Shown here: positions 9,217 through 64,000 of the stretch, piece after piece | Position numbering within the stretch: position 1 is the first letter of the stretch | Layout of the letters: every line of letters begins with the position of its first letter | Assembly (NCBI RefSeq): GCF_020745735.1 | Contig: NW_026867498.1 | Coordinates: 1,639,822 to 1,703,821 of the forward strand | Direction: 5' to 3' | Length of the DNA: 64,000 nucleotides | Source of the DNA: Hemiscyllium ocellatum | Taxonomy: Eukaryota | Notes under the pieces: model-generated | Told to the model about the DNA's origin: nothing | What the model saw: the letters and a program-made list of their open reading frames with translations, nothing else | The model's database searches: none | Made by a program: the position numbers and the translations under genes

Positions 9217-10659
9217 GGCCACAGCTTCAGGTGCACACAAACACGTGTAGAACCCCTCCCTGCCGTGAAATCCCCTTCCCAGGCCGTATAACTGTTTCAG
9301 GCTCCACACACAGTGCGCTCCAACAGTGGGGTCTCTCGTCCAGTCCCACTGATGCTGAAAATGTCCTCAAACAGGAACCAAAAAGCGTTGATCCCTCTCA
9401 CAGAAATCACAGTCAAAAACAGCTGCTGTCCCGATGGATTGAGTGACTGTCAGACATTGACATCAAAGTGAGGACTGCTGACGCTGGACAGTCAGTCGAA
9501 ACATTTGGCACTGGAAAAGCACAGCAGATCAGGCAGCATCCGAGGAGCAGGAGAGTCAATGTTGCGGGCATAAGCCCTTTATCCGTTGATTTTGAAACTT
9601 CAGTCTTCAGATTTTCAAATACTCTGCAAAAAGAGATTACAAAAGTCATCACTATCAGTGCAGGGTAGAAATTCAGAACAAGCAATTCTACTTTCTGTGG
9701 AATATTCATTTGCTGTTCCACAAAATTGAAAGCACCATCCCACTCTCCCTTCCCCTCTGTTCTCACTCCGCTCTAACTAATTCCCCTGAAGGTGCTGATT
9801 CAGGATCTTACAGGGACAGAAAAGGCAAAAACATAAATACTGACATCTCTCTGAATTTTGGATGCCTCCACCTGAAAGTTAATATCTTTCACAACACTGG
9901 GATCCTGCTGAGAGTGAGCAGGTCTGATTTTGGGAAGCAAAACAAAGTGCCAATTCAGGGTGAACCTGCAATGCAGCTTCTTGAGGAAGGACCAGACACA
10001 AAATGGTTAACGACTCCGGGAAGGTGGGAGCAAAATGAGACATCAAGGCATTAACACCGACACACTTCAGTCAAACTCTTCTGCTCCCAGTCAGGGCAAA
10101 ACATGCCCTGAAAGTCCAGCCTTCACAACCACACTTCTGCTTTCACTGAAGACAATTAGAATCACACAGCACGGAAACAGACCCTTTGGCCCAACCTGCC
10201 CAGATATCTGAAATTAATCTAGTCACGTTTGCCATAACTTGGCCCCTATATGGGCCAGGTGCTGGCAGCTGGGACTAAATTGGGTTGGCTATCTTGTCAG
10301 CAAGGACGAGTTGGACCGAAGGGTCTGTTTCTGTGCTGTACATCTCGATGACTCCAGTTGCATTTGCCATCATCTGGCCCTGACCCATTTGAACCCTTCA
10401 TATTCAGATGCCCGTCCAGGAGCGTTTTGACATATCATCGTACCAGCACCCACCACTTCCTCTGGCAGCTCACGCCATCGCTCAAGCGACGCCACGTTGA
10501 AAGTGTCTGGTCTAGTGCGCCAGATGACATCAGGATAATCTCAGATCGTTCCAGATCGCATCGATACTCAGTCAGTGGCTTTCCCGATCAGGATGTTGTA
10601 CGTGATCATACAGGTCAGTGGGTAGGTGATCCCCCACCTCTTAGTTCAAGTATCTCTAC

Positions 10660-11480
10660 GAGAACTCCCTTGCTGGAGGGTCCCTTGGAGACACTTCAAC
10701 TGGACTTCATTGAGTTGTAGAAATGAGTTGAGTTGCTGTAAATATGTTTTGCTTATTGTTGATGTCTTTTCTAAGTGGATTGAAGCCGACCCTCCTCCTA
10801 ACGCGACTGCTGAGTCTGTGGTGAAAAATTTGTTTAAGGAAATAATTCCTTCAGTATACCTGCGTGCATTAGCTCAGACAATGGACCACACTTTGTAGGT
10901 AATATTAACGGAGAACTCTGTTCCCAGCTTTGTATTTGTCGGCAACTGCTCATCCTCAGGCGGCCGGCCTTGGTGAATGTTTTAACCAGAGTCAAGACTA
11001 AACTTGCCAAATTAATGGCTGAGTCTGGCCTCTCCTGGTTATGCTAATCCCTGTGGCCTCATTCCAGATGGGATCCATGTCTGTGGGCAAGATACGACTG
11101 TCTTCAGCTGAGAATCTCTCTGGTCACCCTCTCCGTACCCCTTGGAACGATTCGGCTCCCTTCTCAGTCCACCTCCACCACATGACCGAAGAAATGGTTG
11201 GTTATGTTCTTGCTTTAACTAGTGTTATGCGTGCCTATCACTCCCAGGGGTGTGCGGCCTGCAGCGATGTTCCCTCCCTTTCAGCCTCGTCACGGGTAGA
11301 GCCTGGTTCGTTGGTGCTCGTCAAGACCTGGACTTGCAGAGGTCTCCAACCTCGCTGGGATGGCCCCTTCCAGGTTTTACTTCCCATCCCTACGGTGGTC
11401 AAAGTCGCTGGGCGCTCAGCTTGGGTCCAACTGCACCATTGTAAATTGATTGACCGCACCAATCAAAAGTGGGGAAGAGG
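10660..11480 (+). mobile_element. Endogenous retrovirus pol integrase remnant (gamma/epsilon-like)
   Basis: GPLETLQLDFIEL, CKYVLLIVDVFSKWIEA and C-terminal QPRWDGPFQVLL..PTVVKVAGRSAWVQLHHCK (GPY/F region). Contains stops and frameshifts. Confidence 0.9.
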
Positions 11481-11949
11481 AGGAGAGAATACTGGAATCC
11501 CAACAAAAGGAGTGGACCCTGTCCAGTTGGGTTTTTGAATTTTGCTGTTGTTCTAATGTTAATCTTATTACAGATATTTGAACTAAGAGGAGGGACATGG
11601 GGGGGGGGAGGGGGGGGATCGCCTATCTCCTCACCTTTCTGATCACATACAACATCCTGATGGGGAAAGCCACTAAGTATGGATGTGACCAGGAATGATC
11701 AGAGATTATCCACCACCCATGCTAAGGAGATGTCGTCCAGTGCACCGGACCAGACGCCTTTGACGTGTGGGACGTGATGAAGATTGATTATTGCAATGGA
11801 CTCTTACATCAGAAAGACCAGATGGTCCATCTGGACAGTAGAAATCAGTGGGAGTTACCATGTCGTTACCATGGTTTTTTGATTTTACCTGCAGACGCAA
11901 GCCTAGTGAGGATAAAAATGGTCAACCCCGTTATTATGGTAAATATTTT

Positions 11950-13442
11950 AAGGATGCCTGGGAACACCATCCCTTTTTGCAGTACGGGCCGACTCGAGAA
12001 AAGGGAAGCTTGATAGGGGAAACTCCACAATCCGCAAACAACTTATTTATACAGGCCCACAGAACGCTCTTCACCCCAGAGGCAGGAGTATGTTACTCCT
12101 CTCTATCAGGAGATGACTTACTTGCCCCGTCCCCAGTCCCTGATTCCATACTATTCGTCAGTCTTCCTGCTGCCGACCCTGCGAAGTGAAATATCACGTT
12201 CCAATACCTCCGGTCTGTGTGTACAAACAGCTGGAGTAACACTGGCTGGGGTACAGCAGGCCTTATGCGGTACATGAACCTGGAACGGAACCCTTCCCTT
12301 GTGCATTTATAGGCCTTTTCTCTTTTCAGAATCTGATATTGTCACCAAGACCATGTACAATAGAGCTAAGGGAGAGCCCAATGGGAACAGCATTCTGAGG
12401 ACCATTGTCTCCTATACAGTGCGGGTGCTCGAGTCACTTGGCCCATTTTTTACAGCGCTCAAGCGAATCCTCTTGCAAAACATCGACCCTTTGCTCCTGT
12501 ATATCTGACCAGACCCCCTGCTGTAACATTTCAGTAACCTATTTTGACAAACTCTCCCTAATCTACCCCAAATCAGACTATTATTTCTTCAGCTGAGGTA
12601 AAGCTACCAATTTCCTTGTCATGGATGGCAAAGATGTCCCTCATAACATCAATATCGGAGCCCTTGTTCCCACAACAGTACCTTGTCCTGGTCAGTGGAC
12701 AAGTCGATGGAACCTCCATCTGAGGAGAATGCAGCGGTCGGTCTCAGCCAACTTTACTCCGACTGGAAGGATCCCAATGGACTGGGTGACAATACAGGAC
12801 ACCCAATAGGCTGGGGAATCCAGAATACCGAGGTTGGAAGGATCGGCAGGGGTGACAAGTCAAAAGAACCGCAATTCCCTCATTTGTGGCCTGACCATTC
12901 GAGAAAATAAAGAGGCTCTGGAACAGAGTAACCTGGGATTATCAGAGCTGTGTCTTTACTCTATGCAGAATCGGTATGGCCTAGACAATATACTCGCCCA
13001 GGAGGGTGAGGTCTGCACCACTGTCCAAGATAAATGCACTATGGGCATTCCCGATCTAACTGGCAATATTACTAAGATACAAGAAGAGATCCAGGTATTC
13101 CTTGACAGAATGACTGAAGGGACCAGTTGGGGAAACTGCAGGTCGGGCTGATGGTACAATTGACATATCAATTTAGATATTTATGTTTGTCGGTATTGGT
13201 ATTGTTAGGTATTTAATTGCTCGGCTTATGAGGTCCCTTAGAGATATAGATTTGCCCCAGAAGATGCTCCTTTTGCGATCCGATGGCTCACCCACGTGTC
13301 GATGGCGATGATAAATATGACCAGATGAGCTGCGAAGATGGTGGTGCCGCTCTACAGGATGTTGATGGCTGGACCACCTTGAAGGGCATTCGTTTGGACT
13401 AGCCTTCTCTTTCAGTGATCGCGGTGCAATCAAAGGGAGGAA
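11950..13442 (+). mobile_element. ERV env remnant (gamma-type TM) and polypurine tract
   Basis: Furin-like RRMQR|S. Immunosuppressive-domain-like MQNRYGLDNILAQEGEVC-TTVQDK-C at 12963. Hydrophobic anchor IFMFVGIGIVRYLIA. PPT aaagggaggaa at 13432-13442 followed by TG. Confidence 0.88.
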
Positions 13443-13860
13443 TGAGGGTGTGGGCATCTGGCTGATAAAGTCTACAGCCTTAAAACTTGTCATTAAACAT
13501 TTAGACTAAAAGGTAATGCTGAATTATTGAATACATTTACTGCACTAGAAAATAAACAGGCAAGAAGGCTCAGAAAGAGGAGAGAACTTAAAGATAGGGA
13601 CACCTGGGCTCACCAAGTGATAACAGGATGCTGTAAGGCAATTAAGAAGGTTTGCCTCAGCATCGGTGAATCTGTGTGAACAGGACACCAAGTGATAACA
13701 TTCACAGCCGTTCCCTTGTGAGACCATTTTAGTGCTGAGGCTGTTGAATCCCGTAGAAAATTAACTCTTAGTGTTTATCTGCAATGGATTGTAATGAATG
13801 GCATTTTGGGACTTTATGATGATATTGAGTAGCCATTACTGGTTATTAAATACAAACTCT
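13443..13860 (+). mobile_element. Putative ERV 3' LTR (3' end not defined)
   Basis: Begins TG immediately after the PPT. No clear terminal CA was found. Mirror copy at about 60750-61167. Confidence 0.45.
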
Positions 13861-13891
13861 GTAAAAGGAAATACTGATAAAGTTTGACCTT

Positions 13892-14455
13892 ACTTGCTGC
13901 AGCCGAGACTCCAGCGGAGGCAATAGGCCGCGGGCACACTTCCGTCTTCGGAACGGCCTCGACCCCGCCCCCTCCGACGCCAATGCGACACGTAAACCCC
14001 GCCCCTTCCGAACGCAGCTCGTAAACCCCGCCCCTTCCGAAGGCAGCCCGTAAACCCCGCCCCTTCCGAACAAATCTCCTAATACCCGCCCCTTCCGAAC
14101 GCTGACAGTAAACCCCGCCCTTTCCGGACGCAGCACGTAAAACCTCGCCCCTTTCGAACGCAACTCGTAAACCCTGCCCCTTCGAGACAAAGACCCGGCT
14201 CTTGGAACCACACCCCGTCGCGCACGAAAACCCACCCCTTTCCTTGGTCCCCGCGCGAATCAAAACCATGCCCCCTACCCTCACGAGCAACCGCGCGGCT
14301 CCAGGCTCAACGCGCCGCATCGCCCGCTGAGCCTCGTCCCGCCCACTAGCGCGCGACCCTCTCCCGAGACACGCCCCGCCCATGAGCACCGCCCTCCCGC
14401 TAAAACAGGCCCCCAGGCTAAACCCCGCCCCTCCTGGTAAACCCCGCCCCCCAGG
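13892..14455 (-). promoter_or_regulatory. CpG-island promoter with GC-box array, ETS site and candidate first exon/donor
   Basis: CpG-rich, many CCCCGCCCC boxes, ETS core ACGGAAGTG, and donor CAA|GTAAGG at 13893. Points toward ZNF B. Confidence 0.7.
13992..14192. repeat. 29-bp GC-box minisatellite, 7 units
   Basis: gtaaaccccgccccttccgaacgcagctc-like units start at 13992, 14021, 14050, 14079, 14108, 14137 and 14167. Confidence 0.95.
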
Positions 14456-14602
14456 TGTATTTGGAAGCACTAGCTTCTGCAGCGCTGCTCCTTCTGCGGG
14501 GAGCTGTGCTGCAGGATCATAAGACACAGAATTAATAGCAAAAGATCACAGCGTCATGCAACCGACGCAATATTTGGAACAAACCTGGATCGCTGCTGAG
14601 TC

Positions 14603-14814
14603 CTTTTCCCATTGTTCGGATAGCGTAAGAATGGATGGACGGCTGTTCACAGCGCACACGCCAAAGACGAACTGAATGAGATCACGCGGGGCCCAAGAGC
14701 TTTTCTGTTCGTACCTTGAATTTCGTATGTACATTGAAGCAAAATTTTCGTACAATCCTGTTCGTAAACCGATTTGTACGTGAACGGGTTTGTTCGTATG
14801 TCGAGGCGCTACTG
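14603..14814. mobile_element. Truncated Tigger/pogo-like MITE (one TIR left)
   Basis: Reverse complement of 50045-50257. Retains TIR gttcgtatgtcgaggcgctactg. The other end was removed by the 9.8-kb deletion. Confidence 0.85.
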
Positions 14815-15524
14815 TGCTCTGTAAAAAGAGATTACAAAGGTCATTAGTGCAGGGTAGAAATTCAGAACAAGCAATTCTACTTTCTGTGGAATATTCTTTT
14901 CTTTTGTTATTCCACAAAATTGAAAGCACATCCCACTCTCCCTCCCCCTCTGTTCTCACTCGGCTCGAACTAATTCCCCTGAAGGTGCTGATTCAGGATC
15001 TTACGGGACAGAAAAGCAAAAACATCAAGACTGCCGTGTCTCTGAACTTTGGATACCTCCGCCTGAAAGCTAATATCTTTCACAATACTGGGATACTGCT
15101 GAGAGTGAGCAGGTCTGATTTTGGGAAGCAAAAAGAAAGTGTCAATTCAGGGTGAACCTGCCACGCAGCTTCTTGAGGAAGGACCAGAGACAAAATAGTT
15201 AACGGCCCCAGGAAGGTGGGAGCAAAATGAGACGTCAAGGCATTAACATTGAAAGTAGAGAGAAAGTCAACCTCCTGACTCTGGCAAACGCCAGAGTTAT
15301 AGAGATACATAGCACAGAAGCAGACCCTTCTGTCCAACACAATTGTACTGACCAGATATCCTAAATTAATCTAGTCCCATTTGCTGGCATGTGGCCCATA
15401 GCTGGGATCATCCCCACCCCCTGTCCTGAGACCTTGATGCCTCCAAGCTGACCCTCGAAGGTTTCGTTTGTCCTCCATTCTTTCCCAGTTGTCTTCTGTA
15501 GGTTTTGAAAACTTTCCCAATCCT

Positions 15525-16140
15525 CTGAGTATAGGATTTGGGAAGTTATGTTGTGGCTGTACAGGACATTGGTTAGGCCACATTTGGAATATTGTGTGCA
15601 ATTCTGGTTTCCTTACTATCAGTAAGATGTTGTGAAACTTGAAAGGGTTCAGAAAAATTTACAAGGATGTTGCCAGGGTTGGAGGATTTGTTCTATTTGG
15701 AGGCTAGGGCTGTTTTCCCTGGAGCGTTGGAGACTAAGGAGTAACCTTTATAGAGGTTTACAAAATTATGAAGGGCATGAATAGGATAAATAGCCAAGGT
15801 CTTTTCCCAGGAGGGGGTGGGTCCAGAACTAGACGGCATAGGTTTAGGGTGAGGGTCGAAAGATACAGAAGAGATCTGAGGAGCAACCTTTTCACACCGA
15901 GGGTGGTACATGTTTGGAATGAGCTGTCAGAGGTGGAGGTTAGTACAATTGCAATATTTAAAAGGCATCTGGATGGGTATATGAATGGGAAGGATTTTGA
16001 GGGATGTGGGCCAGGTGCTGACAGGTGGGACCAGATTGTTGGTCCCACCATGGATGAGTTGGACCAAAGGGTCTGTTTCCATGTTGTATATCTCTATGAC
16101 AGGTTGGACTAAAGGGTCTGTTTCTGTGCTGTATGACTCT
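15525..16140 (+). mobile_element. CR1-like LINE 3' fragment (intronic; paralogues at 25060-25660, 38700-39300, 48720-49335)
   Basis: Motifs LYRTLVRPHLEYCVQFW and RVVHVWNEL...FKRHLDGYM. Confidence 0.85.
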
Positions 16141-16599
16141 GGAACCATTTTATACTGGTCTTAAACCATGTTCTCGCCTTCCCCCACAAACATCCACTTC
16201 TTTGTTCAAAAATCAGATGAACTCAGCATTGAATATACTCAATGACACCCTAACTGCAGGAAGACATCCCACTTGTGAACTCAATTCCTCTTGCTAATAT
16301 AACGCTTGCCTTGCCGATTGCTTCCTACATCTGTCTGACAACTGGCAGTGACTGGAGTAGGAGGACACTGAGGCCTCTTTGCCCATCCACACATCAGTCT
16401 AGATGAAGGGCTCGTGCCCAAAACGTCAACACACCTGTTCCTATGATGCTGCCTAACCTACCGTGCTCTTCCAGTACCACAATGTTTGACCCTGATCTTC
16501 AGCATCTGCAGTTCTCACTTTCTCCACATTCAAATACATCTCCATTTAAACAATGCACCTCCTTTCTGTTTTTCTTTGCCACAGCCAAAGCTATAATTT

Positions 16600-17065
16600 C
16601 ATATTGTGGTCCTGTGTTTGCCAATTGTGGTCCTCTCTATATCGGGGAGAGCGAGCGCAAACTTGGGGAACGGTTCACTGAGCATCACAGCTGGGTCCAC
16701 AGAGCCGACAAGACCTCCCAGTCACCACCCATTACAATTCCCTTTTCTGACATGACCATCTTTGGCCTCCTCCATTGCCACAACGAACCTAACTGCAAAT
16801 TGGAGGGACCACACCTCATCTTCCAGGCAGCCTACAGCCTGAAGGACTCAACGTTGAGTTTTCCAATTTCAAAAAAACCTCCCTCCTTGTTCTTTGCCAG
16901 CAACCACATGCATTCCTCCCATTGACCAACCAGGTCGTAGCCTCTACCTGTCTTGACCTATCTCCACTTCACTCCCACCCCCTTTATGTGCAGCTTCTCC
17001 AGCCAGCCCCAGCCCCAGCCCCGAGGAAGGGTTACACCTGAAACGTCGACTTCTCCACCTCCTGT
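16600..17065 (+). mobile_element. Old Penelope-like GIY-YIG 3' fragment (paralogues at about 23880-24330, 40030-40500, 47800-48240)
   Basis: CGPLYIGESERKLGERFTEH...FGLLHC...KLEGPHLIF, ending in a decayed hammerhead-like gaagggttacacctgaaacgtcgac. Confidence 0.75.
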
Positions 17066-17212
17066 CTATTTTGCAAATTGAGACACAGACCTGGACCAGC
17101 GTTTCCAGAGTCTGTCCCCTTCTGGATTCACTCTCTTTTCTTTCAGTTGCTGCAAGTCAACAACTGAACCCCAGAATGAAAAAGACATGGAATGGGAGCA
17201 AAATAGTGCCGT

Positions 17213-17560
17213 ACTCACAGATCTGGGACAGAGGAAGGAATGTGCAGTCTGGGTAAAGCTCTGTCTTTATTCAGAGAGAGAGGATCAGGAGCTGCAGCTT
17301 GAGAAGCTCATGGTCCGACTTCCGCATTCAGACAATGGGCTGACTCTGATTGACAGAAGGACCAGGCTCCTTCCGGTCCTCCAAGGTTGCCTATTGGTCC
17401 ATCAAAAGAAGGTTTCGCGCCTTTTTTGCGTACAGCGATGAGCATGCTCAGTGTTTTGCTGACACTGGTAAGCATGCGCACTGCGTTGCTGACACTGGCA
17501 AACATGCGCAGTATGCTCTATGGGGATGTTGGTGTTCCTGACAGATTTTAAGTGTCCAAA
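17213..17560 (-). promoter_or_regulatory. ZNF promoter module (3x NRF1-like, E2F-like, 2x CCAAT, ETS) plus non-coding exon and intact donor; its ZNF exon is deleted
   Basis: gcatgcgca-type repeats about 30 bp apart, tttcgcgc, ctattgg and ctgattg, cttccgc, and donor ATCT|GTGAGT at 17218. Confidence 0.65.
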
Positions 17561-18019
17561 TGCTAACGGGGGAAAAAAAGAGAGCCACAATTTTTTTTTC
17601 CTGCGGCTCGATATTTGATTTCTTTTGCATTTTGTCTGGCTGCTCAACTTTTGTATGTCGTTTCCCCTTGTTGTGGGGGCAAGGCACCGAGACCAGAACT
17701 GGAGGGCATAGGTTTAGGGTGAGAGGGGAAAGATTTCTGAGGGTACTAAGGGGCAATCCTTTCACACAGAGGGTGGTATGTGGATGGAATGAACTGTCAG
17801 ATGACGTGGTGGGGGCTGGTACAATTACATCATCTGGATGGGGATATGAATAGGAAAGATTCAGAGGGATAAGAGGCGACATGCTGGCATCTGGTCGACA
17901 TAGACTGAAGGGTTTGTTTCTGTGCTCTACAGCTCTGTGACTCTATTTTTAGATAGTATGGAAAATAAAGAGCATGAAAGCATGGGAAGTGTTAGAGCAT
18001 GGAGACCATTTCCAGTTCA

Positions 18020-18908
18020 TAGAGTCATAGAGAGATGTACAGCATGGAAACACACCCTTCGGTCCAACCCGCCCATGCCGACCAGATATCCCAACCCAAT
18101 CTAGTCTCACTTGCCAGCACCCAGCCCATATCCCTCCAAACCCTTCGTATTCATATACCCATCCAAATGCCTCTTAAATGTTGCAATTGTACCAGCCTCC
18201 ACCACTTCCTCTGGCAGCTCATTCCATACATGTACCACTCTCTGCATGAAAATGTTGCCCCTTAGGTCTCTTTAATATTTTTCCCCTCTCACCCTAAACC
18301 TATGCCCTCTAGTTCTGGACTCCCCAGGGAAAAGACTTTGCCTATTTATCCTATCCATGACCCTCATAATTTTGTAAACCTCTATAAGGTCACCCCCACC
18401 ACCCCTCCAAGTCTCTGACGCACCAGGGAATCAGCCCCAGCCTGTCCCAATAGCTCAAATCCACCAACACTGGCAACATCCTTGTAAATCTTTTCCGAAC
18501 CCTTTCACGTTTCACAACATCTTTCCGATAGGAAGGAGACCAGAATTGCATGCAATATTCCAACAGTGGCCTAACCAATGTCCTGTACAACCGCAACATG
18601 ACCTCCCAACTACTGTACTCAATACTCTGACCAATAAAGGAAAGCATACCAAACGTCTTCTTCACTATCTTATCTACCTGTGACTCCACTTTCAAGGAGC
18701 TATGAACCTGCACTCCAAGGTCTCTTTGTTCAGCTACACTCCCTAGGACCTCACCATCAAGTGTATAAGTCCTGCTAAGATTTGCTTTCACAAAATGCAG
18801 CACCTCACATTTATCTGAATTAAACTCCATCTGCCACTTCTCAGCCCATTGACCCATCTGGTCCAGATCCTGTTGTAATCTGAGGTAACTCTCTTCGCTG
18901 TCCACTAC
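18020..18908 (-). mobile_element. CR1 LINE 3' fragment (mirror at 45955-46840)
   Basis: LQQDLDQMGQWAEKWQMEFNSDKCEVLHF...LVRPLLEYCMQFWSP. Confidence 0.92.
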
Positions 18909-19530: not shown

Positions 19531-19949
19531 GAAAGACTCGCGGGGGGGGGGGGGGGGGCAAAGGGTGGGGTGAGAGAAAGACTGGGGGGGACAGAGGGTG
19601 GGGTGAATTTTAACTTCGTACACCCCAGTCCAACACCGGCATCTCCAAATCGGGGACGTAGTTCTTTGAAAGTTGCATCATTGCTGGACAGGGTGGTGAA
19701 GGAGGCGTTTGGCACACTTGCCTTCATTGTTCACACCGTTCAGTGTAGGAATTGGGACATCACATTGAGGTTGTACAGGATATTGGTGAGACCACGTGTA
19801 GAGTACTGAGTACACTTCTGGTCGCCCTATCGACGACCACAAGTTGACTGGTGACCTTATTTCGATTTATAAAGTCATGGGGCGTGTAGGAAAGGTAAAT
19901 ATCACAAGGGGGAAGAAAGGGTGGATCTCCCCTTTTTTTACTTCTCTTG

Positions 19950-53603: not shown

Positions 53604-54844
53604 CTTCCAAACAAACCTGTTGGATTATAGCCTGGTGTTGTGCGATTTTTAACTTTGTCCATGGGAAACACATGAGTTGTGGGACTGGTAACAGTTCTTA
53701 TTTTGTGATCTATTCCAAGTGAAATTTCTCCTCTGCGCAGGCACGGGTGAACAGTTTGTTTTTTGTGCTTTGCGCGAGATCGGGCTAGCAGCTTTTAAAT
53801 CCTTATGTTAAGCAGTCGAAGTAAACTGTCGATCAGCAACTGTATTCCGAGAGTGGTACTTCCAGCTCTGGTAATCCTGTTGCATCAGAGAGAGGGAGAG
53901 GATGTCACATCTAAAGAGCAGACTGAAAAGTTATTTCGCTTGTTGAGTCAGTTCCTCCCTCAGATGAGACGGGATATTGCTTTTAATGGATCATAATTAA
54001 ATGCTACAATGGAACATCTTAAATTTGAGGAGGTTTGAAAGGGCAAACAAAACAGTTTCTTTGAAAAGAGATATTGTTCCATTTCTAATCTTGGGTGACC
54101 CATGAGACATTTTTACTGAGAGCGCCATAATCATCTTCCTGCTGGATTTTTTTCAGGGCAAGCAATTTCTGGTGAGAGAAATTCTGCATCCTGGGAAGGC
54201 GGGGAAATTAACATAAAAACAGGCTGTTAAAAGCATTTTAACTGTGGGTCCAGGAGCTTTCGTGGGAGCAGTGCATTTGCCAAAAACATTTCGGAGGAAT
54301 TCTGTCGAACTGTTGGACTGAAAGTAGTTTCCCCACTGAACATTAAACAGGCATTGAGAACGTTGCGCATTATAGTGTGTTCCTGAGGACCGGAGGAGGA
54401 TTGAACTTGCCAACGTGAACCACACTTTGCAGAGAGAGGAAATTTCTCCGGATGGAAGAGGTTGATGGAAGTCAACAATTGTCAGATTATTTCATGAAAA
54501 TAACAGCTGCTATAGGGAACACCTAGAAGAGGGGCGTGTGTAATGAGTACACAGAAACAAACTCTTCAGTCCAGGCCAGCCAGATATCCTAAATTAATCT
54601 AGTGATCCATTTGCCAGCATTTGGCCCATATCCCTCTGAATGCTTCCTATTCATATCCCCATCCAGATGTATGGTTTTCTTTGGAGAATACTTGGGTGAG
54701 AGCCAAGATATGCTATTACTCAGCCTTTTCCCACTGAGCTTGACCTTTTCTTCATGTTAATTGGAGCTGGAAAAGCCTGAAAGCTGAAAAGGATTCCTGG
54801 GGAAAAAAAAACTTTTCCTTTCAGTCGCTACAAGTCAATAATTT

Positions 54845-55035
54845 ATAGAATCCCTGCAGTGTGGGAAGAGGCCTTTCGGACCAACCAGTCCACACCAACT
54901 CTCCGAAGAGCAACCCATTCAGACCCATTTCCCTATGACTCTACACTTACTTCTGAGTAATGCACCTAACCTACACATCCCTGATTGCAATGGGGAATTC
55001 ACCTAACCTGCACATCTTTGGATTGTGGGAGTAAA
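54845..55035 (-). mobile_element. HE1/V-SINE 3' portion
   Basis: Reverse complement has the V-core cccacaatccaaagatgtgcaggttaggtgaatt and the CR1-derived tail gtgtggactggttggtccgaaaggcct. Confidence 0.75.
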
Positions 55036-55097
55036 ACCCACGGCCCTTGAGCCCAGCATTAAAAATAAATGGAAAACGGCAGTGGCAAAAGAGAGCG

Positions 55098-55455
55098 CCG
55101 TACTCACAGAAGTGGGACAAAGGAGGGAAGTTGCAGTCCGGCGTGAAGGTGAATCTTCATTCATGGCAGAGAATCAGCAGCAGGTTCAGAAACTCATGGT
55201 GCACCTTCCGCATTCAGACACCATGGGGGGTTCTGATTGGCAGGAGGACCGGTCTTCTTCTGGTCCTCCTTGGCATTCTATTGGTTCGTCAAAAGTAGTT
55301 CGCGCGCCTTTTCGGCGGACAGCAAGAAGCATGCGCAGTGATTTGCTGACACCAGCAAATATACGTTATGCCTTACTAACACCGAGGAGCATGCGCAGTA
55401 TGCTCTGTGGAGATGCCGTTATTACTGACGTTTTTAAGCGTCCAAATGCAAATCG
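55098..55455 (-). promoter_or_regulatory. Further copy of the ZNF promoter module with intact donor, pointing toward the 3' end of gene E
   Basis: gcatgcgcag twice, ttcgcgc, ctattgg, ctgattgg, cttccgc and gtactcac (donor). Confidence 0.6.
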
Positions 55456-55936
55456 GAAAAAAAAGGATAGAATCACATTTTTTCCTGTGGCTTAAGATTT
55501 TATTCCTTTTGCATTCTCTCTGGCTGTTCCATACATGTACCACCCTCTGTGTGAAAAGACTGCCCCTTAGGTCTCTTTTATATCTTTCCCCTCTCACCCG
55601 AAACCACGTCATTCCAGATGAAGGGCTTGTGCCGATAGGTCAACTTTCCTACTCCTTGGATGCTGCCTGACCTGCTGTGCTTTTTCAGCACTGCACTTTT
55701 TGACTCTGATCTCCAGCATTAGCAGTCCTCACTTTCTCCACTTCCCAATATATCACCATTTAAACAATACACCTCATTTCTGCTTTTTTTTCCACAGCAA
55801 AGACTATAACTTCACACTGTGGTACTGCACTTGCCACATGTTTGAGGCACAGACCTGGACCAGCTTTTCCAGAGTCTGGCCTCTTTCTGGATTCACTCCC
55901 TTTCTTTGCAGTTGCTGCAAGTCAACAATTGGATCC

Positions 55937-56166
55937 CAGCTGAAAATGTGTTGCTGGTTAAAGCACAGCAGGTTAGGCAGCATCTCAGGAATAGGAAATT
56001 CGACGTTTCGAGCATAAGCCCTTCATCAGGATGTTTCCTGAAAAAGGGCTTATGCTCGAAACGTCGAATTTCCTATTCCTGAGATGCTGCCTAACCTGCT
56101 GTGCTTTAACCAGCAACACATTTTCAGCTGTGATCTCCAGCATCTGCAGACCTCATTTTTTACTCG
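55937..56166. mobile_element. Head-to-head Penelope pLTR insertion: 95-bp palindrome with 17-bp TSD
   Basis: Arms 55937-56031 and 56036-56130 with 2 mismatches. TSD aacaattggatcccagc at 55924-55940 and 56167-56183. Confidence 0.92.
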
Positions 56167-57670
56167 AACAATTGGATCCCAGCAAGAAAATAAAAGAAAT
56201 AGAAAAGGGAGTGAGAGTAGTGTGTGCTGTTGGACAGACGAAGGAAATTACAGTCTTGGATGAATCTCAATCTTCATTCAAAGAGGGAGGAGCAGCAGCA
56301 GCTTCAGAAGCTCATGGGTCAAGATTGAAGTCGTGCTGGAAAAGCACAGCTGGTCAGGCAGCATCCGAAGAGCAGGAAAATCGACATCTCGGATTCAGAC
56401 AATAGGGCTGCTCTGAATGGTAGGAGGACTAGACTCCCTCCGGTGTTCCAGTGCTCCTCATTGGTCCGGCCGCTAATACTATTCTTCCTATTACAGGGCG
56501 GCCACAGGTGTACTCAGGACTCCAGAAAAATGGCCTCACCAACATCCTGTACAACCTCAACATAGAACAAAGAAAATTTACAACCCAGCAATAGGCCCTC
56601 CAGCCCTCCAAACCTGAGCTGATCCAAATCCCCTGTCTAAACCTATCGCACAATTCCTGAATCTGTATCCATCTGTTCTCCAATGACTCATGCATCTGTC
56701 CAGATGCACCTTAAATGAATCTACCGTCCCTGCCTCTACTACCTCTGCTGGCAATGCGTTCCAGACACTTATCACCGTCTGAATAATGTACTTTCTGTGT
56801 GCATCTCCAACATGATGTCCCAACACCTGTACTCAGCATGTGAACAATGAAGGCAAGTGTGCTGAACACCTTCTTCACCCCCCTGATCTACCAGTGATGT
56901 AACTGCCACGAACAATGAACCTGAACACCTCCAGGTCTTTGTTCCACAACACGACTCGGGCCCTACCATTACCTGCTCAAGTCTTGCCCTCCTTTATTTT
57001 AGCAAAATGCAACTCCTCACTGATATCCGTACCCCTCTCATACACACACGCGCTCTCTCAGACATACACATGCACCACCCTCTCAACACACACACCCTCT
57101 CGCAAGTTCATACTCCATCACAATCTCACTTTATCAAGCAGGCACACATGCTCTCACACACACTTCCCTGATGAAGGGCGTTTCCCCGGAACGTCAATCT
57201 TCCTGCTCCTTGGATGCTGCCTGACTTGCTGCAGTACCACACACTCAATCCTAAACCTATTACCCTCTAGTTCTGGACTGCCCCATCCAAAGGAAAATAT
57301 CACATCCATTTACCCTATCCATGCCCTTCATGATGATATAAAAGCATATAAGGTCACTCCTCAGACTCTGGCAAGCTGCGGAAAACAGTCCCAACCTGAA
57401 CTTGTCTCTCCTCACCCGGGTCACCAAGACACATACCTGAGGTGGTAAAGTCTGCTCCCTCTCTGGATTCACTCCAGTTGCTACAAGTGAGCCTGCTCCA
57501 TCATTCATTAAGATCATGGCTGATCTATCCATCGTCTCATCTCCTTCTCCCTGCACTGCCGCAAGGAACCCCTTAATTCCCTTACCAGGCCAAATCCCAC
57601 CCAACTGTGTCTTGAATATACTTAATGAAGCTGCCTCTATTGCTTCCTTGGCCAGAGTATTCCATAGATT

Positions 57671-57763
57671 TTGATGAAGGGCTTTTGCCCGAAACATCGA
57701 TCTTCCTGTGCACTGGATGCTGCCTGACCTGCTGTGCTTTTCCAGCACCACTCTAATCTAGAT
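57671..57763 (+). mobile_element. Short Penelope pLTR insertion with 13-bp TSD
   Basis: ttgatgaagggcttttgcccgaaacatcg..., flanked by tattccatagatt at 57658 and 57764. Confidence 0.8.
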
Positions 57764-58837
57764 TATTCCATAGATTCACGACCCTCTGGGAAAAGCAGTT
57801 CCTCATCTCTGTCTGAAAGCTACTCCCTCTAACCTGGAGGCCTAGTGTCACCCACTAGCAGAAATGACCGGACAAGGTAGGACTTCATTCCCACAGTGCA
57901 ATGACATTGGGAAGATGTTTCCATCGGTAGGAGAGATGAGGACCAGAGGACACAGCTTTAAGAATAAAGTGAAAACCTTCAGGAACAGAGATAAACGATG
58001 TCTCCTTTTCTGCTGACAGCGAGGAGCATGGACAATGTATTGGTGACATGAGCGAGCAGGTGCACTGTTGTTCACACCGAGGAGCAGTCGCAATGTGCTC
58101 TGTGGCGATGCTGGTGTTGTTGACAGATGTTAAGTGTTCAAATGCCAAGAGGAGAAATAAAGGGTAGAGCCACAGTTTTTTTTTCCCCTATGAGGCTCAA
58201 CATTTTATAGCTGGCTGCTCAACTTTTTCTAAAATGTCTTTTCCCCAGAGTAGGGGTGAGGTTCACAACTAGAGGGCATAGATTTTGGGTGAGAGCAGAA
58301 GGATAGAAAAGGTACCGCAGGGGCAACTTTTCCATGCAGAGGATGGTGCATGTATGAAATGAGCTGCGAGAGGAAGCAGTGGGGGCTGGTATAACTACAA
58401 CATTTAAAAGGCATCTGGATAGATATATGAATATAAAGGGTTCAGAGGGATATGAGCCAAGTGCTGGCAAATGGGACTACATTCATTTAGGATATCTGGT
58501 TGGCATGGACAGGTTGCACCAAGTGAATGTGTTCCCATGCTGTACAACTTTGTGACTCAATAATAAAAAAGTATATTTTTCAAAAACCAAACTATCTCCA
58601 TGTTAACAAGGCTTAGTTCACCACATACTTTACTAACCATTCTCAACAGGTCCTGCCCCTTCAATGACTGAGGAACATATACATGTTGGGGCATAGTATC
58701 CTTCACTAGTATTTACACACTACCCTCAGCAATTGCACAAGTAACAGCAAAGGGCAAACAGCACAAGGATTAAACACACAGTGAGGGGTAAACAGCACAA
58801 GCGCCAGTAAAAGCAGATGGAAAGTGAGTGTAAAATA

Positions 58838-59133
58838 CCGGTGTCTGCCCCGGGCCGCACGGCGCCATTTTCCTAACGGCCGCTTCCTCGCTCGAGCGAC
58901 TTCTCCTCCCAACCGCCTTCGCCCCCGCGTGACGTCTGCACGGGGGGATGGGCGGGGCCGGGGGAGCCTCACCGTCACCAAGCAACAGCCACCTCGCGCT
59001 ACAACTGCTCATTCACAAAAACAAACTCTCCTGTCTCGCTCTGCAGCTGCAGGGGGGGACACTGCCACGTTTCGAGGAGCCCTGTCTACATTGGGAAAGC
59101 TCACCGCTCCATTTAAACAGATATTCCCACATC
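58838..59133 (-). pseudogene. QSOX-derived promoter plus first codons, copy C (rest of exon deleted)
   Basis: Near-identical to 34437-34745. MAPCGPGQTP is joined directly to the sequence flanking the minisatellite. Confidence 0.85.
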
Positions 59134-59759
59134 TAACGGAACGGCCTCATATCTAAAGGGGGCAATCTGCATTTTAAAGGGACATGGACATTTTAACGGT
59201 ATTTCTGCAAATAAAGAAATTTAAATGGACGAGATTACATTTCAAAGGGATGTGGGCACATTCAAAGGGATATCTTAATATATAAAGTGACGCAGTTATA
59301 TCTAAATGAATCTACATTTCGAAGAGACGTTGCCCTGTTTATAAGTAGAGACAATAGCTGTGAATACTGTCTGTGCCCCAATGTTCAGTCAGACTGACAT
59401 TTTTCTCAGAAAAGCTCTGCACTTAAATTACATTCTTGAGAAGGTAATTTATAGATTAGAGTGTAGGTTAGGGAGAATTGGCCGTGCTAAGTTACCCATA
59501 GTGACCAGGGATGTACAGGTTAGGGTGGATTGGCCGTGGGAAATACAGAGTAAGGGGTTGGGTATGGGTGGGATACTGTTCAGAGGGCCAGAGTGAAATA
59601 GATGGGCTGAATGGCCTGCTTCCACATTGTCGGAATTCGAGACCCTCCCCACAAAGAGGCATTTTATCTGCATCGATCTTGTCAAGCCCCTTTCGGAATT
59701 CTACTGGTTTCAATAGAGGCTGCTGCCGCTGGAATACAGAAAATGTACCATTTATTTGT

Positions 59760-59975
59760 TGGTATCACTGCTGCCTCACAGCGGCAGAGCCCCGGGTTCA
59801 ATTCCTCTCCCACATCTGCGTGGGTATCCTCGCGGGTTAGGGTGAATTGGCCACGCTAAATTGCCCCGTAGTGTTAGGTGACGGCGAATGGGGCTGGGTG
59901 TTTTGCTCTTCGGCGGGTCGGTGTGGACTTGTTGGGCCGAAGGGCCTGTTTCCACACTGTAGGAATCTGATCTAA
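59760..59975 (+). mobile_element. HE1/V-SINE with internal deletions
   Basis: tRNA-derived head cactgctgcctcacagc...cccgggttcaattcc (B box), V-core remnant and tail gggccgaagggcctgtttccacactgta. Confidence 0.85.
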
Positions 59976-60184
59976 AGTTCTGGAATTTATATATTGATGA
60001 ACTAAAACCTGCAACCTGTTTTAAAAGATGAAGGACTCAGCAGCGATCCAGGTTTGTTCCAAATATTGCGTCGGTTGCATGACGCTGTGATCTGTTGCTA
60101 TTAATTCTGTGCCTTATGATCCTGCAGCACAGCTCCCCGCAGAGGAGCAGCGCTGCAGAGGCTAGTGCTTCCAAACACACCTGG

Positions 60185-60722
60185 GTGGGCGGGGCTTACC
60201 AGGAGGGGCGGGGTTTAGCCTGGGGGCGGGTTTTAGCGGGAGGGTGTTGCTCATGGGCGGGGCGTGTCTCGTGAAAGGAACGCGCGCTAGTAGGCGGGGC
60301 GATGCGGTGCGTTGAGCCTGGAGGCGCGCGGCTTTGTGGGCGGTTGCTCGTGGGGGAAGGGGGCGTGGTTTTTATTCGCGCGGGGTCCAGGGAAGGGGTG
60401 GGTTTTGGTGCGGAAGGGGGAAGGAAGTGTGGTTCCAAGAGGCGGGGCTTTGTCTCGAAGGGCCAGGGTTTACGAGCTTTGTTCGGAAGGGGCGGGGTTT
60501 ACAAGCTGCGTTCGGAAGGGGCGGGTATTACGAGGTTTGTTCGGAAGGGGCGGGTATTACGAGCTCTGTTCGGAAGGGGCGGGGTTTACGTGCTGCGTTC
60601 TGAGGGGGCGGGGTTTACGTGTCGCATTGGCGTCGGAGGGGGCGGGGCCGAGGCCGTCCCGAAGACGGAAGTGTGTCCGCGGCCTATTGCCTCCGCTGGA
60701 GTCTCGGCTGCAGCAAGTAAGG
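60185..60722 (+). promoter_or_regulatory. CpG-island promoter with 6-unit GC-box minisatellite and donor (mirror of 13892-14455)
   Basis: 29-bp units ending at 60473, 60502, 60531, 60560, 60589 and 60618. ACGGAAGTG, and donor at 60717. Confidence 0.7.
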
Positions 60723-61167
60723 TAAAACTTTATCGGTATTTCCTTTTACAGAGTTTGTATTTAATAACCAGTAATGGCTACTCAATATCATCATAAAGTC
60801 CCAAAATGCCATTCATTTCAATCCATTGCAGATAAACACTAAGAGTTAATTTTCTACGGGATTCAACAGCCTCAGCACTAAAATGGTCTCACAAGGGAAC
60901 GGCTGTGAATGTTATCACTTGGTGTCCTGTTCACACAGATTCACCGATGCTGAGGCAAACCTTCTTAATTGCCTTACAGCATCCTGTTATCACTTGGTGA
61001 GCCCAGGTGTCCCTATCTTTAAGTTCTCTCCTCTTTCTGAGCCTTCCTGCCTGTTTATTTTCTAGTGCAGTAAATGTGTTCAATAATTCAGCATTACATT
61101 TTAGTCTAAATGTTTAATGACAAGTTTTAAGGCTGTAGACTTTATCACCCAGATGCCCACACCCTCA

Positions 61168-64000
61168 TTCCTCCCTTTGATTGCACCGCGATCACTGAAA
61201 GAGAAGGCTGGTCCAAACGAATGCCCTTCAAGGTGGTCCAGCCATCAACATCCTGTAGAGCGGCACCACCATCTTCGCGGCTCATCTGGTCGTATTTATC
61301 ATCGCCATCGACACATGTGGGTGAGCCATCGGATCGCAAAAGGTGGATCTTCTGGGGCAAATCTATATCACTAAGGGACCTCATAAGCCGAGCAATTAAA
61401 TACCTAACAATACCAATACCGACAAACATAAATAGCTAAATTGATAAGCCACTTGTACCATCAGACGGACCTGCAGTCTCCCCAACTGGTCCCTTCAGTC
61501 ATTCTGTCAAGGAATACCCGGATCTCTTCTTGTATCTTAGTAATATTGCCAGTGAGATCGGGAATGCCCATAGTGCATTTATCTTGGACAGTGGTGCAGA
61601 CCTCACCCTCCCGGGCGAGTGTATAGTCTAAGCATACCGATTCTGCATAGAGTAAAGACACAGGTCTGATAATCCCAGTTTACTCTGTTCCAGAGCCTCT
61701 TTAGTCTTATTTCCTCGAATGGTCAGGCCACAAAAGAGGGAATTGCGGTTCTTTTGACTTGTCACCCCTGCCGATCCTTCCAACCTCAGGGTACTCTGGA
61801 TTCCCCAGCCTATTGGGTGTCCTGTATTGTTACCCAGTCCATTGGGATCCTTCCAGTCGGAGTAAAGTTGACTGAGACCGACCGCTGCATTCTCCTCAGA
61901 TGGAGGTTCCATCGACTTGTCCACTGACCAGGACAAGGTACTGTTGTGGGAACAAGGTCTCCGATATTGATGTTATGAGGGACATCTTTGCCATCCATGA
62001 CAAGGAAATTGGTAGCTTTACCTCAGCTGAAGAAATAATAGTCTCATTTGGGGTAGATTAGGGAGAGTTTGTCAAAATAGGTTACTGAAATGTTACAGCA
62101 GGGGGTCTGGTCAGATATACAGGAGCAAAGGGTCGACGTTTTGCAAGAGGATTCGCTTGAGCGCTGTAAAAAATGGGCCAAGTGACTCGAGCACCCGCAC
62201 TGTATAGGAGACAATGGTCCTCAGAATGCTGTTCCCATTAGGCTCTCCCTTAGCTCTATTGTACATGGTCTTGGTGACAATATCAGATTCTGAAAAGAGA
62301 AAAGGCCTATAAATGCGCAAGGGAAGGGTTCCGTTCCAGGTCCATGTACCGCATGAGGCCTGCTGTACCCCAGCCAGTGTTACACCAGCTGTTTGTATAC
62401 ACAGACCGGAGCTATTGGAAAGTGATATTTCACTTCGCAGGGTTGGCAGTAGGAAGACTGACGAATAGTATGGAATCGGGGACTGGGGACTGGGCAAGTA
62501 AGTCATCTCCTGATAGAGAGGAGTAACATACTCCTGCCTCTGGGGTGAAGAGCGTTCTGTGGGCCTGTATAAATAAGTTGTTTGCGGATTGTGGAGTTTC
62601 CCCTATCAGGCTTCCCTTTTCTCGAGTCGGCCCGTCCTGCAAAATGGGATGGTGTTCCCAGGCATCCTTAAAATATTTACCATAATAACGGGGTTGATCA
62701 TTTTTATCCTCACTAGGCTTGCGTCTGCAGGTAAAATAAAAAAACCATGGTAACGACATGGTAACTCCCACTGATTTCTACTGTCCAGATGGACCATCTG
62801 GTCTTTCTGATGTAAGAGTCCATTGCAATAATCAATCTTCATCACGTCCCACACGTCAAAGGCGTCTGGTCCGGTGCACTGGACGACATCTCCTCAGCAT
62901 GGGTGGTGGATAATCTCTGATCATTCCTGGTCGCATCCATACTCAGTGGCTTTCCCCATCAGGATGTTGTACGTGATCAGAAAGGTGAGGAGATAGGCGA
63001 TCCCCCACATGTCCCTCCTCTTAGTTCAAGTATCTGTAATAAGATTAACATTAGAACAACAGCAAAATTCAAAAACCCAACTGGACAGGGTCCTCTCCTT
63101 TTGTTGGGATTCCAGTATTCTCTCCTCCTCTTCCCCACTTTTGATTGGTGCAGTCAATCAATTTACAATGGTGCAGTTGGACCCAAGCTGAGTGCCCAGC
63201 GACTTTGACCGCCGTAGGGGTGGGAAGTAAAACCTGGAAGGGGCCATCCCAACGAGGTTGGAGACCTTTGCAAGTCCAGGTCTTGACGAGCACCAACGAA
63301 CCAGGCTCTACCCGTGACGAGGCTGAAAGGGAGGGAACATCGCTGTAGGCTGCACGCTCCTGGGTGTGAAAGGCACGCATAACATTAGTTAAAGCAAGAA
63401 CATAACCAACCATTTCTTCGGTCATGTGGTGGAAGGGGACTGCAAAGGGAGCCGAATCGTTCCAAGGGGTACGGAGGGGGTGACCAGAGAGATTCTCAGC
63501 TGAAGACAGTCACGTCTTGCCCACAGACATGGATCCCATCTGGAATGAGGCCACAGGGATTAGCATAACCAGGAGAGGCCAGACTCAGCCATTAATTTGG
63601 CAAGTTTAGTCTTGAGTCTGGTTAAAACATTCACCAAGGCCGGCCGCCTGAGGATGATAAGCACCATGCAGTTGCCGACAAATACAAAGCTGGGAACAGA
63701 GTTCTCCGTTAATATTACCTACAAAGTGTGGTCCATTGTCCGAGCTAATGCACGCAGGTATACTGAAGGAATTATTTCCTTAAACAAAATCTTCACCACA
63801 GACTCAGCAGTAGTGTTAGGAAGAGGGTAGGCTTCAATCCACTTAGAAAAGACATCAACAATAAGCAAAACATATTTACAGCATCTCAACTCATTTCTAC
63901 AACTCAATGAAGTCCAGTTGAAGTGTCTCCAAGGGACCCTCCAGCAAGGGAGTTCTCGTAGAGATACTTGAACTAAGAGGTGGGGGATCGCCTACCCACT
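61168..64000 (-). mobile_element. Mirror copy of the ERV integrase and env remnant
   Basis: Reverse complement of 10617-13442. KYVLLIVDVFSKWIEAYP, QPRWDGPFQVLL and LDYTLAREGEVCTTVQDKC. Confidence 0.92.

What the first reader, a model, noticed from the sequence alone, without database searches (positions are those of the whole stretch)
10617..64000. Giant palindrome (over 50 kb span, about 7 kb spacer) organising a KRAB-less zinc-finger cluster
Seen: 10617-29040 is the co-linear reverse complement of 36069-64000, with every repeat, promoter and ERV piece mirrored. The arms differ by frequent substitutions and private indels, so this is not a fold-back assembly artefact. Known: large palindromes on mammalian sex chromosomes maintain gene families by arm-to-arm conversion. 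Inference: this shark-type ZNF cluster expands by inverted duplication, and the mirror of gene B should lie just beyond 64000.
Basis: partly seen in the sequence, partly recalled or inferred. Interest (0 to 1): 0.8.

Follow-up and report, generated by a model that had tools for sequence, protein, structure and literature searches.

The report
Decaying inverted duplication, shark zinc-finger cluster
A stretch of shark DNA carrying zinc-finger genes was copied back-to-front next to itself long ago, making a hybrid gene at the join, and the two copies have since drifted apart rather than repairing each other; this is a known way such gene clusters grow, seen here in a shark.

Summary
The inverted duplication is real, but it is not a conversion-maintained palindrome. 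The young arms are 10617-26880 and 37494-64000 (open at the window end). They share 16.3 kb at 2.55% substitutions, spread almost evenly; the longest identical run (264 bp) is what chance gives. The mirror is incomplete, because the left arm lost 9.8 kb, including the body of a 16-finger gene. Gene D (37167-37718, minus) is a hybrid: gene C's promoter and first half-finger joined in frame, at an 8-bp microhomology, to the last fingers and 3' flank of an older, oppositely oriented paralogue. This resembles hybrid Alu/LINE junctions of human inverted duplications. An older head-to-head inverted repeat (13% diverged) is nested in each arm. The genes are KRAB-less C2H2 arrays; the closest named relative is from Chiloscyllium punctatum. 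Verdict: a new shark example of a known kind, a decaying inverted segmental duplication in a birth-and-death ZNF cluster. Misassembly is unlikely but untested without reads.

The parts
10617..26880 (+). Left arm of the young inverted duplication; its outer limit is set by the window end on the other arm
37494..64000 (-). Right arm, including two blocks absent from the left arm; runs off the window
26881..37493 (.). Spacer of the young duplication (10.6 kb): C zinc-finger array and 3' flank, LINE and Penelope-like remains, QSOX1-like piece, D 3' flank and fingers
27603..29039 (+). C last fingers and 3' flank; inverted match to 37494-36069 is older paralogy (5.1% in the flank, 8.3% in the LINE part), equidistant with gene B
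37494..37501 (-). Junction of hybrid gene D: 8-bp CTGCCCTG shared with C finger 1 (26873-26880) and with the C-P-x-C start of later fingers
   Evidence: the donor's original sequence is not in the window, so the microhomology is inferred
37167..37718 (-). Gene D coding exon (ATG 37580): in-frame hybrid, one broken finger plus 3 intact fingers
40674..41135 (-). Promoter-like unit and predicted non-coding exon 1 of D (CCAAT, ETS-like and NRF1-like motifs; GT donor at 40674)
   Evidence: motif-based, motif names recalled, no RNA data
26653..27930 (+). Gene C coding exon (acceptor 26653, ATG 26794): 378 aa, 13 intact C2H2 fingers, no KRAB
23230..23694 (+). Promoter-like unit and predicted exon 1 of C; the donor reads GA here where the four paralogous units read GT
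50579..52084 (+). Gene E coding exon (ATG 50696): 16 fingers, 3 with a broken zinc ligand; no mirror in the left arm
47165..47639 (+). Promoter-like unit and predicted exon 1 of E (GT donor at 47639)
14605..17690 (-). Orphan mirror of E: promoter-like unit, donor at 17218 and intron, cut off at 14605 before the coding exon
50256..60030 (.). 9.8-kb block present only in the right arm; deleted from the left arm (3-bp CTT overlap at the break; the break cuts a small TIR element that is whole in E)
50045..50310 (+). 266-bp element with terminal inverted repeats in the E intron; marker that shows the direction of the 9.8-kb indel
43660..44180 (.). About 0.5-kb block present only in the right arm; deleted from the left arm (a repeat runs across the right-arm junction)
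14818..19319 (-). Older inverted repeat X1, partner of X2 (head-to-head E/C upstream modules, 13.3% diverged); mirrored at 45548-50041
22426..26383 (+). Older inverted repeat X2; mirrored at 37988-41930
8166..9354 (-). Gene B coding exon (ATG 9216): 8 fingers in frame, then a frameshift; just outside the aligned arm
13893..14460 (-). CpG island with 29-bp GC-box/ETS-like repeats and a GT donor at 13893; probable promoter of gene B
   Evidence: assignment to B is inferred
60150..60717 (+). Mirror of that CpG island, donor at 60717 pointing out of the window
1..341 (-). Gene A, start of coding exon (ATG 203), frameshifted in finger 1; runs off the window
11023..11538 (+). Retroviral integrase C-terminal remnant (PF18697), mirrored at 63069-63509 on the minus strand
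34149..35996 (.). Segment downstream of D, co-linear and same-strand with the segment downstream of B (4889-6679; 6.0% diverged over 1,251 sites); shows that D's 3' half belongs to a B-type minus-strand unit

Best explanation
A real, old inverted segmental duplication in a birth-and-death cluster of two-exon, KRAB-less C2H2 zinc-finger genes of a shark. Before the event, gene C (plus) faced an older paralogue D0 (minus) across about 10 kb. A broken or stalled strand inside D0's finger array re-paired with finger 1 of C and copied outwards through C's promoter, the head-to-head E module and beyond. This made the right arm and the hybrid gene D. The arms then diverged independently (about 1.3% each) and the left arm lost 9.8 kb and 0.5 kb by deletion. 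There is no sign of arm-to-arm homogenisation; conversion appears only as a short tract between paralogues. The likely role of the genes is rapidly turning-over DNA-binding repressors, possibly of transposons. Shown: geometry, identities, end point, hybrid ancestry of D, direction of the deletions, absence of KRAB in the window. Inferred: the fold-back or template-switch step, which arm was the template, the exon structure, and any function.
For: The high-identity match stops at 26880/37494, exactly at D's out-of-register finger junction. 5' of it C and D are sisters (22 of 847 differences; 100/100 support). 3' of it B, C and D are unresolved (49 of 956 for C-D; p=3.5e-5 against the arm rate, tested on 48 of 966). 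D's 308-nt finger block differs from its best ungapped placement in C at 46 sites, where about 8 are expected. D's downstream 2.4 kb and more is co-linear with B's on the same strand. Private mutations split evenly, 76 left and 71 right, over 3,558 four-way columns. Hybrid Alu or LINE repeats and 2-8 bp microhomologies mark the spacer junction of human inverted duplications, with spacers of 0.8-70 kb (PMC3907307, passages).
Against: Only the inner junction is in the window, so one-step inverted copying cannot be told from tandem duplication followed by inversion. D0's original sequence is gone, so the microhomology is inferred, and D lacks 2 nt relative to a clean join with a C-P-E-C finger start. 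A later deletion could have removed the real crossover point. Parts of the C/D 3' flank are locally as close as the arms (5 of 196 in columns 300-500). Arm divergence is over-dispersed with the 29-bp repeat region included (p<1e-5), and still at 250-column scale without it (p=0.0009; p=0.12 and 0.09 at 500 and 1000). No reads or second genome were available. Contact-position pN (0.44) exceeds other positions (0.17) but is close to pS (0.36-0.49), so positive selection is not shown.
Confidence: 0.6

Rival explanations
1. Real duplication, different route: a tandem or full-length inverted copy of C was made first, and D's 3' part was later replaced by conversion, or flipped by recombination between opposite ZNF paralogues, with a deletion in the array.
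For: A short B-like tract in D's leader (7 substitutions and 1 indel, all D=B; D-B 1 of 97 against 20 of 100 and 9 of 100 either side; p about 0.04 after correction for windows) shows that paralogues exchange sequence. Recombination between KZFP clusters caused an inversion in mouse (PMC12575710, passages).
Against: It needs replacement of more than 1.4 kb of flank, including a shared LINE, up to a point where D continues co-linearly with B and not with C, and the replaced tract must end exactly at the abnormal finger junction.
Confidence: 0.22
2. Assembly error: two divergent haplotypes joined in opposite orientation (heterotype false duplication).
For: Such errors are common in vertebrate assemblies and rise with repeat content (PMC8081667, passages). 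ZNF clusters can differ structurally between haplotypes. No reads were available.
Against: 2.55% uniform divergence is about 13 times the nucleotide diversity of 0.002 in a related carpet shark (PMC10587355, passages; the species of the window is not known). There is no gap in the window. The spacer is 10.6 kb of non-mirrored sequence whose right part has its own paralogy to gene B.
Confidence: 0.1
3. One reading: a palindrome that maintains the ZNF family by ongoing arm-to-arm gene conversion, as on mammalian X and Y.
For: Palindromic geometry with arms over 8 kb. Slow, steady conversion in short tracts could lower divergence without leaving long identical runs; this cannot be excluded without an outgroup.
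Against: 97.5% identity against over 99% (PMC9122934, passages) and over 99.9% (PMC13688818, Discussion); longest identical run at chance level; no weak-to-strong bias; two unrepaired deletions; no matched gene pair in the window.
Confidence: 0.06

Closest known systems
Young mouse KRAB-ZFP clusters expanded by segmental duplication (PMC12575710, passages read)
   Same: Multi-gene blocks duplicated together with the transposons already in them, partial duplications from several rounds, chimeric elements at boundaries, an inversion from recombination between clusters.
   Different: No KRAB here; shark lineage; the chimeric element at the boundary is a ZNF gene, not a LINE or ERV; the duplication is local and inverted.
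Human inverted duplications with a disomic spacer, fold-back model (PMC3907307, passages read; ODIRA alternative in PMC10766186, passages read)
   Same: Single-copy spacer in the 0.8-70 kb range; hybrid repeat or short microhomology at the spacer junction.
   Different: Those are de novo disease rearrangements with terminal deletions. This one is interstitial as far as seen, 2.5% diverged, and its outer junction is outside the window.
Mouse autosomal palindromic duplication SD12A1 (PMC13688818, abstract and Discussion read)
   Same: Palindromic arms around a spacer, roughly uniform divergence, no evidence of inter-arm conversion, arms drifting independently.
   Different: Megabase scale and about 93% identity there; here tens of kb, 97.5%, and the arms carry ZNF modules.
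Mammalian X/Y large palindromes (PMC9122934, passages read)
   Same: Inverted arms over 8 kb carrying gene-family members.
   Different: Defined by over 99% identity and arm-to-arm conversion; not met here. Sex linkage and testis expression unknown.
Zebrafish FiNZ-ZNF family (bioRxiv 10.1101/2022.11.29.518450, passages read)
   Same: KRAB-less, lineage-specific, clustered ZNF genes with one exon for the finger array; shown there to repress young transposons.
   Different: FiNZ is cyprinid-specific and coded by the upstream exon. Here the predicted upstream exon looks non-coding and the proteins start about 14 residues before finger 1.

Membership tests
Large conversion-maintained palindrome (mammalian X/Y type) | Inverted arms longer than 8 kb | tested here: met
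   16.3 kb aligned per arm
Large conversion-maintained palindrome (mammalian X/Y type) | Arm identity over 99% | tested here: not met
   395 substitutions in 15,510 columns, 97.5%; criterion from PMC9122934
Large conversion-maintained palindrome (mammalian X/Y type) | Signs of arm-to-arm conversion within one sequence (long identical tracts, GC bias) | tested here: not met
   Longest run 264 bp, P=0.34 under uniform divergence; 48 W>S against 67 S>W
Large conversion-maintained palindrome (mammalian X/Y type) | Concerted evolution across species | not testable with these tools
   No shark genomic DNA collection available
Large conversion-maintained palindrome (mammalian X/Y type) | Near-identical gene copies on both arms | tested here: not met
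   E body missing from the left arm; D is a truncated hybrid; the B mirror lies outside the window
Large conversion-maintained palindrome (mammalian X/Y type) | Sex-chromosome location, germ-line expression | not testable with these tools
   No position or RNA data
Inverted segmental duplication | At least 1 kb at 90% identity or more (threshold recalled), co-linear, inverted, spanning unrelated repeat classes | tested here: met
Inverted segmental duplication | Present in the genome rather than made by assembly | tested here: inconclusive
   Mutation spectrum, no N and divergence far above a related shark's diversity argue for real; no reads
Fold-back / template-switch inverted duplication | Single-copy spacer with homology or microhomology at the spacer junction | tested here: met
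   10.6-kb spacer; hybrid ZNF gene with an inferred 8-bp overlap
Fold-back / template-switch inverted duplication | Second (outer) junction and pre-event allele consistent with one event | not testable with these tools
   Outside the window
KRAB zinc-finger genes | Tandem C2H2 array with TGERP linkers in one exon | tested here: met
   PF00096/PF13465 on B, C, D, E; 42 fingers listed
KRAB zinc-finger genes | KRAB domain | tested here: not met
   Profile from 14 of 31 KRAB-bearing hits: best E=1.4 over 2,567 six-frame pieces; 13 of 13 held-out KRAB proteins found at E<=7e-7. A very divergent KRAB, or an exon outside the window, is not excluded
Chondrichthyan KRAB-less ZNF family | N-terminus and leader shared with shark ZNF proteins | tested here: met
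   The 62-residue leader query found 1 protein among 214 candidates, from Chiloscyllium punctatum, 77% identity; 12 of 35 hits to the first 42 residues are named as sharks or skates
TE-repressing ZNF family (KZFP/FiNZ-like function) | Binding and repression of transposons | not testable with these tools
   Needs ChIP or knock-down
TE-repressing ZNF family (KZFP/FiNZ-like function) | Positive selection at DNA-contact residues | tested here: inconclusive
   pN contact 0.44, other 0.17, pS 0.36-0.49 over 42 non-independent fingers

The most novel reading that the evidence does not exclude
Shark ZNF clusters grow mainly by repeated inverted duplication in which the finger arrays of facing genes are themselves the fold-back substrate. 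Each round would double a multi-gene block and create an in-frame hybrid gene with a new promoter and finger combination, leaving nested palindromes (13% and 2.5% here). These persist for about 10^7 generations without arm-to-arm conversion (1.9e7 at the epaulette shark rate of 7e-10, rate from PMC10587355).
Probability: 0.25. Interest if true: 0.62.

Novelty: new member of a known kind. Interest (0 to 1): 0.36.

Why it matters
Expansion of ZNF clusters by segmental duplication is described in mice, and inverted duplications with hybrid-repeat junctions in humans. Nine literature searches listed no paper on the architecture of shark ZNF clusters, but the library lacks most subscription journals and only the top 2 to 25 listings of each search were seen. 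The locus offers a dated, nested record of how a KRAB-less ZNF family turns over in a slowly evolving vertebrate, and a testable idea: that finger arrays act as the inverted repeats and that junctions yield new genes. It is also a caution: palindromic shape alone does not imply conversion or gene maintenance.

Tried and rejected
Whole-protein homologue search with gene C was saturated (8,000 candidates scored, 120 listed, best identities under 60%, no shark named among the 120) and says nothing on taxon; N-terminal regions were used instead. Rfam and tRNA scans found nothing. Pfam gave no family for the long Penelope-like ORFs 30760-31863 and 32184-33164; only GIY-YIG at 30611-31312 (E=2e-4, just under the curated cut-off) and weakly at 33529-33918 (E=0.15), so the label Penelope rests partly on recall, as do CR1, SINE and MITE. 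The Fisher test printed used a count typed in before the measurement (25 of 386; measured 32 of 386) and is not used. Fold-back read artefact rejected: arms differ at 2.55% with a mutation-like spectrum. Conversion between the old repeats X1/X2 within an arm rejected: 378 sites support the old split, 1 groups by arm and 1 crosswise, of 3,558. Shark N-termini other than the shared leader found no upstream coding exon in the window, apart from a LINE-like match of P0150 at 29401-29592 (12 proteins). Left open: flanking DNA, reads and orthologous shark loci could not be fetched; the metagenome and viral contig collections were not searched, and the bacterial genome collection is not relevant. The bioRxiv ZNF survey has 0 mentions of shark, cartilaginous or chondrichth in its main text; its supplements, not seen, may hold shark ZNF counts.


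Full report
Observation. Self-comparison of the window shows four co-linear minus-strand blocks between 10617-29039 and 36069-64000; a shuffled window gives none. The first three blocks belong to one event. Leaving out the 29-bp tandem-repeat region (13950-14620) and everything past 26880, the arms differ at 395 of 15,510 ungapped columns (2.55%), with 2.1-3.1% in each of five sub-segments. There are 50 indel events, 24 of them single-base. Transitions outnumber transversions 221 to 174, and CpG-context sites differ more often (87 of 733 against 308 of 14,775; the definition inflates this). The window has no N. This is the pattern of two copies that have mutated apart, not of a folded read.

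At 93% identity or more, the inverted match ends at 26880/37494. The further match 27603-29039/37494-36069 is older: in the 3' flank C and D differ at 49 of 956 sites, B and C at 48 of 968, B and D at 56 of 958, and the odd-one-out counts are 27, 20 and 28 of 955. Tested against the arm rate on 48 of 966 sites, p=3.5e-5. So the young spacer is 10.6 kb. The mirror is also incomplete. The right arm holds 9.8 kb (50256-60030) and about 0.5 kb (43660-44180) with no left-arm partner. Both are deletions from the left arm: the first cuts a 266-bp element whose terminal inverted repeats are both present in the right arm, with a 3-bp overlap at the break; the second cuts a repeat that runs across the junction in the right arm.

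Genes. Five C2H2 genes share one N-terminus and splice-acceptor context: A (minus, ATG 203, frameshifted in finger 1), B (minus, ATG 9216, 8 fingers then a frameshift), C (plus, ATG 26794, 13 fingers), D (minus, ATG 37580, 3 intact fingers and a broken one) and E (plus, ATG 50696, 16 fingers, 3 with a broken ligand). A repeated promoter-like unit with CCAAT, ETS-like and NRF1-like motifs (names recalled) and a donor lies about 3 kb upstream of C, D, E and the lost mirror of E; the donor reads GT in four of five copies and GA in C's. A CpG island with a donor at 13893 points at B, and its mirror at 60717 points out of the window. These exon models are motif-based. A KRAB profile found nothing in 2,567 six-frame pieces (best E=1.4) while finding 13 of 13 held-out KRAB proteins, in line with reported loss of KRAB families in cartilaginous fishes (PMC8455134, passages). 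The 62-residue leader matched one protein among 214 candidates, from Chiloscyllium punctatum, at 77%, and 12 of 35 hits to the first 42 coding residues are named as sharks or skates. The window is therefore shark, probably a carpet shark; the species was not determined.

The junction. Upstream of finger 1, C and D are sisters (22 of 847 differences; 100/100 support). Identity ends inside finger 1, where D's helix joins out of register but in frame to the C-G-K of a later finger. The last shared 8 bases, CTGCCCTG, also begin C-P-x-C fingers, though D is 2 nt short of a clean join to a C-P-E-C finger. D's remaining 308 nt differ from their best placement in C, B and E at 46, 48 and 53 sites, where about 8 would be expected for a copy of C. 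D's last finger is nearer B's (5 of 100) than C's (12 of 100), and the DNA downstream of D runs co-linear with that downstream of B on the same strand at about 6%. D is thus C's 5' end on the 3' end of an older minus-strand paralogue. Human inverted duplications show the same arrangement with other repeats: spacers of 766-70,466 bp, 3 of 21 junctions forming hybrid Alu or LINE elements and 13 with 2-8 bp microhomology (PMC3907307, passages). Secondary rearrangement of a tighter palindrome is an alternative origin for such junctions (PMC10766186, passages).

Nested history. Each arm contains an older inverted repeat, 14818-19319 against 26383-22426, which places the E and C modules head to head. 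In the four-way alignment the old copies differ by 13.1-13.5%, the young ones by 2.5-2.6%; 378 sites support the old split and only 2 conflict, and private changes number 76 on the left arm and 71 on the right (3,558 columns). So there were at least two inverted events, with same-strand duplications of 3' modules at about 5-6% in between.

No sign of arm-to-arm maintenance. The longest identical run is 264 bp, against a simulated median of 244 (P=0.34). Polarised changes are 48 weak-to-strong and 67 strong-to-weak. Against this reading, divergence is over-dispersed at 250-column scale (p=0.0009) though not at 500 or 1000 (p=0.12, 0.09), and slow conversion cannot be excluded without an outgroup. 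The one clear tract is between paralogues, not arms: in D's leader, 7 substitutions and an indel all match B (p about 0.04 after correction). Mammalian sex-chromosome palindromes are defined by over 99% identity (PMC9122934, passages). The better parallel is a mouse autosomal palindromic duplication with uniform divergence and no conversion (PMC13688818, abstract and Discussion), and mouse KZFP clusters that grow by multi-gene segmental duplication with chimeric elements at boundaries (PMC12575710, passages).

Artefact risk and age. Haplotype mis-joins are common (PMC8081667, passages) and cannot be excluded without reads. The arm divergence is about 13 times the diversity of 0.002 measured in the epaulette shark (PMC10587355, passages). 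At that paper's rate of 7e-10 per generation the duplication would be about 1.9e7 generations old; this is rough, since rate and species are borrowed.

Function. By analogy with KZFPs and the KRAB-less zebrafish FiNZ family, which represses young transposons (bioRxiv 10.1101/2022.11.29.518450, passages), these are probably fast-turnover repressors. This is inference. Contact positions vary more than other finger positions (pN 0.44 against 0.17) but not clearly above pS (0.36-0.49).

Verdict. This is a decaying inverted segmental duplication with a hybrid ZNF gene at its inner junction: a new shark member of a known kind. Interest 0.36. It would rise to about 0.6 if finger arrays proved to be the usual junction of inverted duplications across shark ZNF clusters.

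Noticed in passing
window 34149-34747 (minus); partial copies 4889-5053 and 58840-59137: A QSOX1 (sulfhydryl oxidase 1) first-exon-like piece with CpG-rich upstream DNA and a donor-like site at 34212; best PDB match E=3.5e-9, the CxxC motif reads GGPC. The copies are much closer (3 of 165, 2 of 298) than their flanks (5-6.6%), suggesting recent conversion or a captured, mobile promoter. The copy at 4889-5053 points towards gene A.
   Followed up: partly
window 33165-33200 and 34102-34137: A 36-bp direct repeat (97%) flanks about 900 bp that include a GIY-YIG-like fragment; looks like an unusually long target-site duplication.
   Followed up: no
window 23694-23695: The predicted exon-1 donor of the only fully intact array (gene C) reads GA, while the truncated hybrid D keeps GT; C may be mis-spliced or use another donor.
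   Followed up: partly
window 55050-55560 (minus); 19980-20345 and its mirror 44530-44880: Further copies of the promoter-like unit with no zinc-finger exon downstream; the 20-kb and 44-kb copies have lost the donor.
   Followed up: no
window 13991-14183 and 60447-60647: 29-bp tandem repeat (about 6 copies) rich in GC-box and CGGAAG motifs inside the strongest CpG island; a second promoter type, different from that of C, D and E, and one of the more diverged parts of the arms.
   Followed up: partly
window 14605-17690 (minus): After the deletion, the orphan E promoter and donor (17218) point at gene B's acceptor (9354), so they could act as an alternative promoter for B.
   Followed up: no
window 50801-52064: Gene E's array is internally homogenised (many N-S-A fingers; adjacent registers up to 86% identical), pointing to recent finger duplications inside the gene.
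   Followed up: no
window 55932-56135: A 204-bp near-perfect hairpin (95%) formed by two repeat ends head to head.
   Followed up: no
window 3773-6679, 34149-35996, 56703-59719: Three same-strand copies of a mosaic 'downstream of a minus gene' segment at 5-7% divergence; the copy at 56.7-59.7 kb has no gene beside it.
   Followed up: partly
window 4672-4854: 34-bp tandem repeat (5.3 copies); one unit recurs at 58752-58836 next to the third QSOX1-like piece.
   Followed up: no
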